Shown here one piece after another: positions 26,860 to 44,047 of a DNA stretch of 64,000 nucleotides. Both the position numbers and the translations under genes were made by a program. Under the pieces are notes generated by a model. The model searched no databases and was not told where the DNA came from. It worked only from the letters and a program-made list of their open reading frames with translations. The DNA comes from the human T2T-CHM13v2.0 reference genome, Homo sapiens, in the NCBI RefSeq assembly GCF_009914755.1, contig NC_060933.1. The stretch is one strand, 5' to 3'. Numbering within the stretch: the stretch's first letter is position 1; each line of letters begins with the position of its first letter.

Positions 26860-28074
26860 GTTTCAAAAAGTCAAACTTTATTTCAGTGTTATGGTAGAAA
26901 TTTGAAATTCTTAGTTAAGCTATGAATAAATCCTTGGGCAGGTGCAGGCATGGAGATTCTGGAGTGCTGCTGCTGAGTTTAAGAGCTTCCTTTGGAGATG
27001 CCCCCTGGCCCCCTCAACCCCTGTCCACCTGTCAAGAAGAGGCCATCCTGGGCAGCACATTAGAGGCAAATGGCCCAGATGCCCAGCTGAGGGCAAACCT
27101 CCATTCCTGGAGGAGGAGGTCACCTCTGGGAGCCGGAGGACCTGCTGGAACCCCTGCTCACAGGCTCCTTTTCTTGCTCTCCAGCACCTCCTGCAGGCAG
27201 GCAAACACCCCCAGCAGCAGTAGCAGCAGGGCCTTCAGCAGCAGGGCTGCTGCTCTGCTGAATGAGAGAAGTCCCTCTCCAGTGAGGCAGAGGAGCCCAG
27301 GTTGCACACCCTGGTCTCTGCCTCCATAGCTTCCACTGTGCCCAGGACTGGGAGCAGTGTGGGAGCTGCTGGCTGGAGCTGTGCTGGTCACCCCCTCTCT
27401 GCCACCTCTAGCTCCAGCCACACTTTCAGCTCCAGGGCTGAGGCCGGTGGCTCTACAGGAGGTGCCATGAAGTCAGGCAGCTTCTCACTGGGCTGGTCCT
27501 GTGCAGTCCCAGGGCAGCGGCAGGAAGGCTCTGGAGCTTCCTCTAGCTCCAGCGCTGTCCCTGGAAGGGGCTCTGCCCCTGGTGCTGGCACTGGCTCAAC
27601 AGCTGGCACTGGAAATAGCTGTGTTTCTGCACCTGAAGCAGGAGCTGAAAAAGGAGAGAGGTCACCAATATCACTCACTTTCCACTGGAATTTCCAAACA
27701 TGAAAACAACCTCACTGAATTTAAAGGAATTTCAGCCTGAAAACATTGTCCCTGGAAAGACTTCCAGACTGCAGGTGACCTCACCATGTGCCTGTGTCTC
27801 AATGAGCTCCAGAGGCTCCAGCTGGACAAGGACAATGTGCAGATGTGGCCCTGGTGGGATCACTGGTGAGGCCTGGCCTGGTAGCTCCATCTGGGGCCTG
27901 ATGTCTACCTGGTGACTCCTGTCCTGTGGTACCTGGGGGGGCCTTCTGTCAAATGGCCAGAGACATCTGGGGTGAGGGATGAGCCTACAAGGGCATCGTT
28001 GGAAAAGAAAGGCTCTCACTCCTGCCATTCCTGAAGCAGGAGACTTGAGATGTGGGGATGCAGCACAAGAACAT
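26860..28074 (-). pseudogene. CDRT15/CDRT15L2-family unprocessed pseudogene (two exons)
   Basis: ATG at 28074 ([22 protein letters not shown], then frameshift to [18 protein letters not shown]...QVPQD...LHIVLVQ). Intron 27784-27633 is GT-AG. Exon 2 reads ...ALELEEAP...[13 protein letters not shown], frameshift, then [22 protein letters not shown]...; premature TGA at 27160-27158; homologous end NVLPRMASS* at 27032; minus-strand AATAAA at ~26877. Paralogue number cannot be determined. Confidence 0.88.
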
Positions 28075-28162
28075 CTTGCTCTCTTGAGCATCTCCCACCA
28101 AGTGAGCTGGCTATGGGGCTAACTCTAGGATGTGGGTGCCTGGTGCCTGGTTATCGGGATTC

Positions 28163-28738
28163 TTTTTTTTTTTTTTTTTTTTTTTTTTGAGACATTGTCT
28201 CATTCTGTTGGCCAGGGTGGAGTGCAGTGGCATGATCTCGGCTCGCTGCAACTTCCGCCTATTGGGTTCAATCAATTCTCCTGCCTCAGTCTCCTGAGTA
28301 GCTGGGATTACAGGCACGAGACACGCACCACAACACCTGGCTAGTTTTTTTGTGTTTGTTTTTTGTTTGTTTGTTTGTTTTGAGACAGAGTCTCGCTCTG
28401 TCACCCAGGCTGGATGGAGTGCAGTGGCGTGATCTGGGCTCACTGCAAGCTCCGTGTCCTGGGTTCATGCCTTTCTCCTGCCTCAGCCTCCCGAGTAGCT
28501 GGGACTATAGGCGCCCACCACTACGCCTGGCTAATTTTTGCATTTTTAGTAGAGACGGGGTTTCACTGTGTTAGCCAGGATGGTCTCGATCTCCTGACCT
28601 TGTTTGTTTTTTGTATTTTTAGTAGACATGTGGTTTTACCATGTTGTTCAGGCTGGTCTCGATCTCCTGGTTTCATGATCCTCCTGCCTCAGCCTCCCAA
28701 AGTGCTGGGATTACAGGTGTGAGCCACCGTGCCTGGCC
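28163..28738 (-). mobile_element. Alu with a second, 5'-truncated AluY-like element (~28353-28600) inserted in its central A-rich linker
   Basis: Outer TSD tggttatcgggattct / tggttaccagaattct; inner TSD tgtttgttttttgt; outer Alu resumes at 'ttgtatttttagtaga'. Confidence 0.88.
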
Positions 28739-28879
28739 TGGTTACCAGAATTCTAAGTTCTGTTAGGGTCTGTTGCCAAGGAAGTGAGGTTGCTTCTTTA
28801 AGGTTCCATCCCCTCAGCCTCCTCCTTCCAGAAGACCTACTCAGGACCCCAGTGGGCTGCTGACTGCTCATCCTCCCCA

Positions 28880-42722: not shown

Positions 42723-43518
42723 CAGCCTCCTGTCTCTCTGCACCTGCGCCGGCGCCGTGCTCTTCTCTGCGCCGCCACCGTTGCTGGGGGATGGGTCCCT
42801 GAGACTTGGCGAAGTAGGAGTACTGGACTCGTGCACAGGCCCTGTCTCGCAGGTTTTCAGGTGCGCTTGGCGTTTCCTCCGCTTTGAGGGGCAGGTCTCC
42901 AGTGGCCCCCGGGCGCAGGCCTGGACATCACTGTCCGTCTCATCGTCGCCCACTACGGCCTCAGAGACACAGGCTCACTGCATGTGCTCTTGGGGGACGT
43001 CAGTGCCACGTGTGGTCACACTGGCTCCGGCTCGGACTAGCCTCTGTCTCTCTTTGCCCGTGTCGCCGGAAGCCGCGTCGAGATGCCGGAGCCCCCGGGC
43101 CTTGGAGATGAAGGCAGGCCCCTGCTCCACCCAGGAAGGAGGGAGGCAGTGGGCTCGTGGGTCAGTGCCTTTGCAGGCGACAGCACGCCTTGCGGCCCTG
43201 GGGATCTTTCTGTGCCCCGGCGAGAGCCTTTCCGCCTCACTGCATTGTAACCCCATTCCCGATCACCGGGTGGGATCCATCATCGGATCCCAAGAGGAGT
43301 CCGCGCAGCCCAGCCGACACCCCGAAGCTCCTCCTTCACCGAGAACCCAAGCAGAAGACCGATCAAGGAGGTCCTGACGACAGGACTCCTATGGGTCCGA
43401 CCCTGGGTCTCCCGCAGGCCCCTCTGGTAGTCCTCTTCCCACCCGCCGCCCGGGGCTGCGCCGCAGCCGCCGCCGCAACCTCCAGCACCGCCGCCCCAGT
43501 CCCCGCAGCCGCCGCGTC

Positions 43519-43639
43519 GCCGCCATTTTTTAAAGGGTCCGCAGCCTGACTCTGCCGAGTAAGGGGGGGTGGGGCGGGTGAGTCGGCCTCGCCAGTGCGC
43601 ATGCGCGAGGCCCGAGCCGCCGCTTTGGTCACAGTGACC
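43519..43639. promoter_or_regulatory. Candidate CpG-island core promoter: YY1 (43519-43530), GC box (43571-43578), NRF1 (43596-43607), ERE (43627-43639)
   Basis: Motifs GCCGCCATTTT, GGGGCGGG, TGCGCATGCGCG and GGTCAcagTGACC within 121 bp. Activity not shown. Confidence 0.65.
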
Positions 43640-44047
43640 GCCACCGTCGCCGGGGGATGGGTCCCTGAGACTTGGCGAAGTAGGAGCCCTGTGTGATCGT
43701 GCGTCAGAGTCGGGGCTGAGACCAGCCCTGGCCAGGGCAGTTACCAGGACGGTCTCCGGAGGCCGGGATTCGCGGAGGGTCCACCAGCAGGAAGAAACCC
43801 CAGGAGGAAGAAACCTCAGACAGATCGCCGGGGAGGCAGCGCGGGATCCCAGCCTCAGGCGTGCGCGGACGGTGTGCGGGTGAGTCTCCCCAAAAGTGGC
43901 GCCCTTGTGATGTCGAGGACAGGTCTCCCTGTGTGCCCGTGGGCTGCTGTCTCACCGGTGGCTCGTAGTCGCGGAGACCAGAACCCGGCAGCTTCAGGGG
44001 CTGCCTGGGGGTGGGTGTTACCTGCTGTATGTCTGTGTCCATTATGG

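What the first reader, a model, noticed from the sequence alone, without database searches (positions are those of the whole stretch)
26860..43640. Candidate leftward transcription unit: CpG-island/TAR1 promoters, satellites, splice donor, CDRT15-like exons
Seen: several directional elements point to the minus strand. YY1 reads AAAATGGCGGC on minus, with the GC box, NRF1 and ERE upstream of it; the TAR1 block has its telomere-facing side on the left; a consensus CAG|GTAAGG donor sits at the satellite edge (28896); and the CDRT15-like exons and poly(A) signal are on minus. Known: subtelomeric 29/37-bp repeats drive TERRA towards the telomere, and YY1 motifs usually lie just downstream of a start site in this orientation. 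Inference: the repeat composite could produce a long RNA with gamma satellite and a self-complementary satellite, spliced onto the pseudogene.
Basis: partly seen in the sequence, partly recalled or inferred. Interest (0 to 1): 0.78.

Follow-up and report, generated by a model that had tools for sequence, protein, structure and literature searches.

The report
SST1 repeat promoter inside duplicated block
The supposed promoter is a lone copy of the known SST1 macrosatellite sitting in a 25-kb block of repeats that occurs seven times in the genome, and nothing in the sequence singles out a long leftward spliced RNA.

Summary

- **CpG island:** it is one 1.9-kb SST1/NBL2 macrosatellite unit (42823-44722), and its YY1 25-mer recurs 172 times in the genome.
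- **Whole composite:** window ~21-47 kb is a segmental duplication with six further copies (chr9 x3, chr13, chr14, chr21).
- **TAR1 block:** 41232-41718 is a 487-bp interstitial TERRA-like promoter unit with at least 40 copies. It has no match to a primer that I recall as lying in the 61-bp repeat, and no telomeric repeats.
- **28896 donor:** it is at chance level, and 21 equally strong minus-strand donors lie upstream of it.
- **CDRT15P12:** it has its own exon 1.

Published PRO-seq work reports divergent initiation inside chr9 SST1 monomers, so a leftward start is plausible. The only annotated spliced RNA runs rightward. A long leftward RNA spliced onto the pseudogene has no support here, but it is not excluded either. 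These are known elements, so interest is low.

The parts
26866..27644 (-). CDRT15-like exon 2 with stop codon (27388-27390), 3' UTR and AATAAA (26877-26882)
   Evidence: tblastn of the bonobo CDRT15-like protein P0001, residues 102-187, 98.8% identity. The acceptor ctctcctttttcag|C is the strongest minus-strand acceptor in 26800-43600 (11.78 bits). AATAAA located.
27785..28091 (-). CDRT15-like exon 1 (ATG at 28091, donor ATG|GTGAGG after 27785). Not included in the RefSeq pseudogene span.
   Evidence: P0001 residues 1-102 align here. Donor scores 9.19 bits. The spliced ORF of 187 aa is intact in this copy.
28154..28745 (-). Alu pair, sense on the minus strand
   Evidence: Sequence; multiple Alu matches elsewhere in the window.
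28890..28898 (-).
   Evidence: Single exact match; 51 of 100 shuffles give at least 1. Scores 11.48 bits.
28900..31545 (.). 18-bp satellite, 'plus-type' orientation (unit about CACCTGGGGCCTGATGTC), CpG o/e 0.11
31550..36850 (.). The same 18-bp satellite in inverted orientation. A short plus-type stretch lies at 33560-33800 and an interspersed-repeat insertion at 33964-34322.
   Evidence: Inverted BLAST match 29672-30785 against 35381-34348, 73.7%. Orientation profile. Insertion seen.
36885..41231 (+). 193-221-bp GC-rich satellite, 21 monomers plus a partial one, all in one orientation. Most monomers carry a strong acceptor on the plus strand and a strong donor on the minus strand.
   Evidence: CpG o/e 0.53.
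41232..41718 (-). TAR1 / interstitial TERRA-like promoter unit: five units of about 46 bp at 41452-41680 and a pre-telomeric part at 41332-41450. No match to the PR primer and no telomeric repeats.
   Evidence: Primer and guide matches. PR primer absent. No CCCTAA arrays. It splits one satellite monomer at position 41/42. 40 near-full-length genomic copies.
41719..42735 (+). Five more monomers of the 193-221-bp satellite
42823..44722 (.). Solitary SST1/NBL2 macrosatellite unit. This is the CpG island.
   Evidence: 90% identity over 1904 bp to a chr4 array unit. 33 of the 40 scored genome matches are chr4 or chr19 array units. Literature.
43519..43639 (.). Promoter core of the SST1 unit: YY1 (minus strand), GC box, NRF1 and ERE palindromes
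   Evidence: Conserved in the 7 other loci aligned. The YY1 25-mer occurs 172 times genome-wide against 0 for the control.
43877..43885 (+). Donor CGG|GTGAGT that ends exon 1 of the rightward lncRNA LOC124906862
   Evidence: 10.22 bits; gene table; intact in 6 of the 7 other loci aligned.
58118..58932 (+). Exon 2 of LOC124906862: antisense-Alu acceptor, AATAAA at 58916
   Evidence: and the gene table.

Best explanation
The region is one of seven near-identical copies of a pericentromeric/acrocentric segmental duplication of at least 25 kb, built from known repeat families.

- **CpG island.** It is a lone 1.9-kb SST1/NBL2 macrosatellite unit. Its core (YY1, Sp1/GC box, NRF1 and ERE at 43519-43639) is the internal promoter of that repeat family. 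It most likely fires in both directions (inferred from literature on this class of monomers).
- **Rightward output.** This arm meets strong 5' splice sites within about 330 nt (43577, 43879) and gives the annotated spliced, polyadenylated lncRNA.
- **Leftward output.** This arm has no 5' splice site of at least 7 bits for about 1 kb. It most likely gives short upstream-antisense RNA, or at most unspliced read-through into the satellite (inferred).
- **TAR1 block.** It is an interstitial TERRA-like promoter unit pointing leftward. It has no match to a primer that I recall as lying in the 61-bp repeat, and no telomeric tract. If active, it would make a telomere-repeat-free RNA running into the 193-221-bp satellite (inferred).
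- **CDRT15P12.** It is a self-contained two-exon unit whose link to the 18-bp satellite is ancestral.
- **28896 donor.** It is a chance match.
For: SST1 identity:
- Window 42823-44722 is 90% identical over 1904 bp to a chr4 array unit.
- 33 of the 40 scored genome matches are chr4 (23) or chr19 (10) tandem units with a period of about 2.5 kb.
- Tremblay 2010 describes these arrays, their CpG island, and '4 matches on chromosome 9' of more than 90% over 1.8 kb (passages).

Family-wide core:
- The YY1 and ERE motifs are intact in 7 of the 7 other loci aligned, the NRF1 palindrome in 6 of 7, and the GC box in 6 of 7, one locus carrying an inserted G beside it.
- The YY1 25-mer has 172 genome matches against 0 for the control.

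Duplication:
- Six paralogues are colinear with window ~21-47 kb at 92-99% identity.

Bidirectional initiation and low methylation of chr9/13/14/21 monomers:
- Hoyt et al. preprint (passages). GC skew flips sign at about 43500.

Rightward signals:
- Donors at 43577 and 43879 of 10.22 bits; exon 2 acceptor and AATAAA.

Leftward signals:
- The first minus-strand donor of at least 7 bits is at 42504.

TERRA-like unit:
-. Santagostino 2025 lists 106 interstitial promoters, enriched at 9q21.11, of which 97 lack the 61-bp repeat (sections 7 and 8).

CDRT15 unit:
-. The chr17 parent locus also has the 18-bp satellite just upstream.

Donor at chance level:
-.
Against: - No expression, CAGE or methylation data for this locus could be read.
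- RefSeq's first exon (34945-43879) is 9 kb long and starts inside a satellite. That implies RNA coverage of unknown strand over the satellites, which could be leftward RNA.
- The minus strand carries 21 donors of at least 10 bits in 36870-42504. Its strongest downstream acceptor is the CDRT15 exon 2 acceptor.
- Only three AATAAA hexamers (41402, 40759, 38456) lie on the minus strand between the island and the pseudogene. So the sequence itself does not forbid a long, even spliced, leftward RNA.
- Hoyt et al. call the chr9 monomers 'highly transcribed'.
- The splice-site matrices are approximate and were recalled, not taken from a tool.
- That the published PRO-seq peaks sit on the 43519-43639 core is my inference.
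Confidence: 0.7

Rival explanations
1. One reading: a long minus-strand RNA starts at the island (~43550) or the TAR1 block (~41450). It runs through both satellites and is spliced onto the CDRT15-like exons.
For: - The directional elements exist.
- The minus strand is rich in 5' splice sites and poor in AATAAA.
- The CDRT15 exon 2 acceptor is the strongest minus-strand acceptor downstream.
- The island class is hypomethylated and transcribed both ways in CHM13.
- The 9-kb RefSeq exon suggests RNA over the satellites.
Against: - The proposed donor is at chance level and is not the first strong one.
- The pseudogene's own exon 1 would have to be skipped.
- The annotated junction is on the other strand.
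- A chr9 hybrid gave no NBL2-containing RNA after AZA/TSA treatment.
- The 18-bp satellite and the CDRT15 unit have CpG o/e of 0.04-0.11, as expected of constitutively methylated DNA.
- The substitution strand-asymmetry test was null.
Confidence: 0.07
2. The TAR1 block acts on its own as an interstitial TERRA-like promoter. It makes a short minus-strand RNA without telomeric repeats, independent of the SST1 unit.
For: - The block holds the repeat tract and the pre-telomeric part in TERRA orientation, with CpG o/e 0.69.
- All interstitial promoter-flanked loci tested by RT-qPCR in Santagostino 2025 were transcribed (section 9).
- An AATAAA lies at 41402 on the minus strand.
Against: - The loci tested in that preprint were flanked by telomeric repeats, and cDNA was primed on the repeat. 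This locus has none.
- No coordinates at 78.036-78.040 Mb appear in the Hsieh 2025 supplement (0 hits).
- Whether this locus is in the preprint's list could not be seen, because its supplements are closed.
Confidence: 0.2
3. The CDRT15-like unit is transcribed from its own promoter just upstream of exon 1 (~28100), as at the chr17 parent gene. It has no input from the composite upstream.
For: - The unit has complete gene-like signals: ATG, donor, 140-nt intron, acceptor, stop and AATAAA.
- The same gene-satellite arrangement is found at chr17 and in at least 16 copies of 93-100% identity.
Against: - An Alu pair sits 60 bp upstream of the ATG.
- CpG o/e is 0.06.
- 2 of the 7 copies carry stop codons, and most nucleotide changes alter the protein, so there is no sign of constraint.
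Confidence: 0.3

Closest known systems
SST1 / NBL2 (MER22) macrosatellite and its transcripts (TNBL)
   Same: 90% identity over 1.9 kb to chr4/chr19 array units. It has the same CpG island and the same YY1/NRF1/ERE core. Monomers have promoter activity and divergent Pol II peaks.
   Different: It is a single truncated unit (1.9 of about 2.5 kb), not an array. TNBL comes from arrays on chr13/14/15/21, and a chr9 hybrid gave none. Which window strand corresponds to 'antisense' TNBL could not be worked out.
Interstitial TERRA-like promoters (Santagostino et al. 2025 preprint) / TAR1
   Same: The repeat tract and pre-telomeric segment match published subtelomeric primers. The orientation is TERRA-like. 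The genomic distribution of the 487-bp unit (chr9, 1q21, 2p11, acrocentric short arms) mirrors the published map.
   Different: There are no telomeric repeats next to it. No match to the PR primer, which I recall as lying in the 61-bp repeat. It is inserted cleanly into a satellite monomer. Its presence in the published list is unconfirmed.
Divergent CpG-island promoters with U1/poly(A)-signal asymmetry (established model, recalled)
   Same: The TF-motif core lies between a strand with early strong 5' splice sites (plus) and a strand without them for about 1 kb (minus). GC skew flips at the core.
   Different: The minus strand lacks early AATAAA, and further on it enters an array with one strong 5' splice site per monomer. 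That is not typical of upstream-antisense regions.
CDRT15 gene family (CMT1A duplicated region transcript 15)
   Same: Two-exon structure and 89-99% protein-level match to a bonobo CDRT15-like model. The 18-bp satellite lies upstream, as at chr17.
   Different: Annotated as a pseudogene. It is only about 75% identical to the chr17 copies at DNA level, and the seven copies show no sign of constraint.

Membership tests
SST1/NBL2 macrosatellite | Sequence homology to the 2.4-2.5-kb units of the 4q28.3 and 19q13.12 arrays | tested here: met
   90% identity over 1904 bp. 33 of the 40 scored matches lie in chr4/chr19 tandem arrays. The array positions and the inverted chr19 pair agree with Tremblay 2010.
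SST1/NBL2 macrosatellite | Tandem (macrosatellite) arrangement | tested here: not met
   There is one truncated unit only; the 0.66-kb remainder of the chr4 unit is absent. The literature already recognises such 'monomers' on chr9/13/14/21.
SST1/NBL2 macrosatellite | Internal CpG island with promoter activity and divergent Pol II peaks | not testable with these tools
   The CpG island and motif core are present. Activity is known only from the literature on the class.
TERRA promoter (61-29-37 repeats) | 29/37-bp repeat tract followed by the pre-telomeric segment, in that order towards the telomere | tested here: met
   ChIP-R and the sub3 guide match the repeat tract (41493-41661). TF, TR and ChIP-F match 41332-41383. 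The order and strands agree with a leftward TERRA sense.
TERRA promoter (61-29-37 repeats) | 61-bp repeat tract (CTCF sites) | tested here: not met
   The PR primer site is absent (0 matches at up to 3 mismatches). That PR lies in the 61-bp repeat is my recollection, not taken from the paper. Only a fragment of about 30 bp is present at 41679-41710. 97 of the 106 published interstitial promoters also lack the 61-bp repeat.
TERRA promoter (61-29-37 repeats) | Adjacent (TTAGGG)n tract that is transcribed | tested here: not met
   There is no telomeric array. 38 12-mer matches with up to 3 mismatches were found against 71 expected, and none is clustered.
Gamma satellite (GSAT/GSATII/GSATX) | GC-rich pericentromeric tandem repeat homologous to the GSAT consensus | tested here: inconclusive
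Among the 150 listed of 306 genome matches, none lies in the chr12 GSATII cluster named in PMC8524813.
CDRT15 family | Homology to the CDRT15(-like) protein across two exons with a conserved intron | tested here: met
   P0001 matched with E=2e-60. Exons 28091-27785 and 27644-27388 give an intact 187-aa ORF. The Pfam DUF5529 hit is only E=0.25.
Bidirectional CpG-island promoter | Opposite-strand start sites within a few hundred bp | not testable with these tools
   Indirect support only: the GC-skew flip at about 43500, the motif cluster, and published PRO-seq for the class.

The most novel reading that the evidence does not exclude
In all seven copies of the duplication, the SST1 core or the TERRA-like unit drives minus-strand RNA into the 193-221-bp satellite. 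There, most monomers offer a consensus 5' splice site (21 of at least 10 bits), and strong acceptors are few. Such an RNA would be loaded with U1 and kept on chromatin. Alternatively it would splice to the next strong acceptor, CDRT15-like exon 2. That would lend a germline or early-embryo promoter to a CDRT15-like ORF that is intact in 5 of the 7 copies.
Probability: 0.07. Interest if true: 0.55.

Novelty: already known. Interest (0 to 1): 0.22.

Why it matters
A promoter-like CpG island in a pericentromeric duplication turns out to be a lone unit of a macrosatellite. That macrosatellite is already known to start transcription both ways and to lose methylation in cancer.

Any RNA or methylation signal here has to be apportioned among seven copies. 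These lie on chr9 and on the short arms of chr13, chr14 and chr21, which I recall are the chromosomes where SST1 arrays mark Robertsonian breakpoints.

The locus also places an interstitial TERRA-like promoter about 1.1 kb from an SST1 promoter. The TERRA preprint does not mention this pairing in its main text: 'SST1' and 'satellite' each gave 0 hits there.

Tried and rejected
- **Rfam.** Gathering thresholds over the whole window gave 0 matches. E-value mode over 36800-44600 gave only matches with E above 1.
- **ARAGORN.** 0 tRNAs, so a tRNA-derived origin for the satellite monomer has no support. This is despite a T-arm-like TCGAACC motif at 13 sites in the array.
- **Pfam on seven ORFs.** Only DUF5529 at E=0.25.
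- **D20S16 as an alternative name for the ~196-bp repeat (98-bp dimers).** TRF gives periods of 193-221 bp only and no 98-bp period.
- **Naming the satellite by location.** The genome hits fall only within the same duplication family.
- **Strand asymmetry of singleton substitutions among the seven copies, as a proxy for germline transcription direction.** In the 196-bp satellite plus TAR1 region there were 38 T>C against 16 A>G. With 1422 T and 837 A this is not significant, and the other regions were flat.
- **Hsieh 2025 supplement.** 0 hits for coordinates 78036-78040.
- **TNBL 'antisense' direction.** It could not be mapped to a window strand because the primers are in a supplement.
- **Tools and papers unavailable.** Xi 2007 is not held.
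Full report
**Check of the observation**

The window is T2T-CHM13 chr9:77,996,001-78,060,000.
- AAAATGGCGGC on the minus strand at 43519-43529.
- A GC box at 43571.
- GCGCATGCGC at 43597-43606.
- A perfect ERE palindrome at 43627-43639.

Each occurs once in 64 kb. In 100 dinucleotide-preserving shuffles, 0, 1 and 5 shuffles reached the observed count for YY1, NRF1 and ERE respectively. 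The motifs lie in a genuine CpG island (42751-44550, GC 0.65, CpG o/e 0.75).

The donor CAG|GTAAGG is at 28890-28898 on the minus strand. One such match is what chance gives: 51 of 100 shuffles have at least one.

The 18-bp satellite runs in one orientation from about 28900 to 31545. It runs mostly in the inverted orientation from 31550 to 36850.

A GC-rich tandem repeat of 193-221 bp fills 36885-41231 and 41719-42735. It has 26 monomers, all in one orientation. I could not verify the name 'gamma satellite'.

**The TAR1 block**

I anchored it with sequences from a paper rather than from memory. Le Berre et al. 2019 (PMC6600276, primer table) list primers for the Xq/Yq/15q/16p/9p TERRA promoters.
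- TF, TR, ChIP-F, ChIP-R and guide sub3 each match window 41332-41661 with 2-3 mismatches. No shuffle reached this.
- The RNA-sense primer TF lies on the minus strand (41383 to 41363), and TR lies just to its left on the plus strand.
- The PR primer has no match. I recall that it lies in the 61-bp repeat.
- The window has no telomeric repeats.

The block (41232-41718) splits one satellite monomer cleanly at monomer position 41/42.

The same 487-bp unit occurs at least 40 times in the genome at 90-100% identity over nearly its full length. Only 40 of 145 candidates were scored. The copies are on chr9 (10), the acrocentric chromosomes (21), chr1 at 142-144 Mb (3), chr2 at 89.6-90.1 Mb (2), chr4 (2), chr3 (1) and chr20 (1).

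This is the distribution that Santagostino et al. (bioRxiv 10.1101/2025.05.15.654290; sections 5, 7, 8, 9 and 12 read) report for 106 'interstitial TERRA promoters'. Those are enriched at 9q21.11, 9p11.2, 1q21.1, 2p11.2 and the acrocentric short arms, and 97 of them lack the 61-bp repeat. Their locus table is in a closed supplement, so I cannot say that this locus is listed.

**What the CpG island is**

A search of the window's own genome with 42751-43900 returned 40 scored matches out of 471 candidates.
- Seven are full-length at 97-100% identity. These are the window itself, chr9:40.12, 41.94 and 47.86 Mb, chr13:12.72, chr14:6.68 and chr21:9.73 Mb.
- The other 33 are units with a period of about 2.5 kb in tandem arrays on chr4:135.0-135.3 Mb (23) and chr19:38.8 and 40.0 Mb (10, the two arrays in opposite orientation).

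These are the SST1 macrosatellites of 4q28.3 and 19q13.12. Tremblay et al. 2010 (PMC3018141, passages) describe 2.4-2.5-kb units of 64% GC, each with a CpG island of about 400 bp. They describe two inverted chr19 arrays and 'matches of >90% over 1.8 kb on chromosome 9 (4 matches) and 21'.

The window matches a chr4 unit at 90% over 1904 bp (42823-44722). The remaining 0.66 kb of the array unit is absent.

The motif core is a family feature. In the alignment of seven other loci (three chr9, chr13, chr14, chr21 and one chr4 unit):
- the YY1 and ERE motifs are intact in 7 of 7;
- the NRF1 palindrome, the GC box and the plus-strand donor at 43879 are each intact in 6 of 7.

The 25-mer around the YY1 site occurs 172 times in the genome at up to 2 mismatches, against 0 for the reversed control.

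**The composite is a segmental duplication**

Six paralogous stretches of 25-26 kb are colinear with window ~21,000-47,000 at 92-99% identity. They differ mainly in satellite copy number.

A wider family lacks the SST1 end. The CDRT15 unit has 16 copies at 93-100% identity. The two satellites hit only this family. For example, chr22:5.756 Mb is colinear with window 24944 to about 41230.

**The CDRT15 end**

RefSeq's pseudogene span (26866-27648) covers only exon 2. A bonobo 'CMT1A duplicated region transcript 15 protein-like' model (P0001, 187 aa; E=2e-60) aligns to 28091-27786 and to 27648-27391.

The structure on the minus strand is:
- exon 1 with its ATG at 28091;
- a donor ATG|GTGAGG after 27785;
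- a 140-nt intron;
- an acceptor with first exon base 27644;
- a stop codon at 27388-27390;
- AATAAA at 26882.

The 187-aa ORF is intact in 5 of the 7 copies. The chr9:47.8 Mb and chr13 copies carry stop codons, and chr13 has also lost the donor GT. Most nucleotide differences change the protein, so I see no constraint.

The chr17 parent locus also has 18-bp satellite immediately upstream of the gene. The gene-satellite link is therefore ancestral.

**Direction of transcription**

I had no expression data. From sequence, using approximate splice-site matrices that I recalled:
- The plus strand has donors of 10.22 bits at 43577 and 43879.
- The annotated lncRNA LOC124906862 uses 43879, an antisense-Alu acceptor at 58118, and AATAAA at 58916.
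- The minus strand has no donor of at least 7 bits from 43600 down to 42505.
- It then has 28 donors in 36870-42504, of which 21 score at least 10 bits, about one AAG|GTGAGG per monomer. All of these come before 28896.
- Minus-strand acceptors of at least 8 bits number 17 between 43600 and 26800. The strongest is CDRT15 exon 2.
- Minus-strand AATAAA occurs only at 41402, 40759, 38456 and 26882.
- GC skew is -0.21 and -0.33 at 43300-43499, and +0.09 to +0.16 at 43500-43899. This is the pattern expected of divergent starts.

From the literature:
- Hoyt et al. [quoted passage not shown] They are the highly transcribed SST1 loci in CHM13 PRO-seq. The monomers are less than 50% methylated. All highly transcribed units show two closely spaced peaks in opposite orientations.
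- Dumbovic et al. 2018 (PMC6009586, passages) show promoter activity of NBL2/SST1 monomers. They find long non-polyadenylated 'antisense' TNBL RNA from chr13/14/15/21 after demethylation. They found no RNA from a chr9 hybrid by RT-qPCR or Northern blot.
- Tremblay et al. found RT-PCR signal across the CpG island in all 20 tissues, not strand- or copy-specific.

**Reading**

A leftward start at the SST1 core is plausible and, for this class of monomers, already published. The leftward TERRA-like orientation is confirmed.

The chain from there to a long RNA spliced at 28896 onto CDRT15P12 rests on a chance-level motif, and it ignores the pseudogene's own exon 1.

I think the productive product is the rightward lncRNA. 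I think leftward RNA is short, or is unspliced read-through.

Against this reading:
- RefSeq's 9-kb first exon, which begins inside a satellite, hints at RNA over the satellites whose strand I cannot tell.
- The minus strand is rich in donors and poor in poly(A) signals.

A test for transcription-linked substitution asymmetry among the seven copies gave nothing.

**Novelty**

The parts and their behaviour are in print: the SST1 monomers on chr9, interstitial TERRA-like promoters at 9q21.11, and the CDRT15 pseudogenes.

The TERRA preprint's main text does not mention SST1, satellites or CDRT15 (0 hits each). The close pairing of the two promoter types in seven duplicated copies is therefore a small addition.

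Supplements that might settle whether this locus is listed or was assayed could not be read.

Noticed in passing
27785-28091 (minus strand): RefSeq's CDRT15P12 span omits a first exon. With it, the copy has an intact two-exon 187-aa ORF that matches a bonobo CDRT15-like model. The ORF is intact in 5 of the 7 paralogues, with mostly protein-changing differences.
   Followed up: yes
36885-42735: Most ~196-bp monomers carry a strong 3' splice site on the plus strand (T-run followed by CAG|G; 25 sites of at least 8 bits). On the minus strand there are 21 strong 5' splice sites of at least 10 bits (AAG|GTGAGG). A T-arm-like TCGAACC motif occurs at 13 sites in the array, but ARAGORN and Rfam find nothing.
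   Followed up: partly
41232-41718: The TERRA-like block is a clean 487-bp insertion that splits one satellite monomer at position 41/42. The same unit, with the same ends, recurs at least 40 times in the genome.
   Followed up: yes
41679-41710 and 42734-42764; 42772-42820 and 43638-43686: The five right-hand monomers are flanked by inverted ~31-bp copies of the proximal TAR1 end (0 of 500 shuffles reach the alignment score). A 49-bp piece from inside the SST1 unit is repeated directly at the unit's left edge (96% identity).
   Followed up: partly
27860-27950; L027 (chr17:14,144,500-14,145,500): Part of CDRT15-like exon 1 reads like the 18-bp satellite, and the chr17 CDRT15 locus has the same satellite just upstream. 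The gene family may have arisen at the edge of this satellite.
   Followed up: partly
34945-43879 and 58118: The predicted lncRNA's first exon is 9 kb long. It starts inside the 18-bp satellite and runs through both satellites, the TAR1 block and the SST1 core. Its second exon uses an antisense-Alu acceptor. The true plus-strand start is probably inside the island.
   Followed up: no
35303-35821 (minus strand): The annotated pseudogene LOC100419926 lies wholly inside the 18-bp satellite. The frame I tried has 9 stop codons.
   Followed up: no
36885-42735 versus 28900-36850: Singleton differences among the seven copies are far denser in the ~196-bp satellite plus TAR1 region (319 in 5488 aligned columns) than in the 18-bp satellite (76 in 6035).
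   Followed up: no
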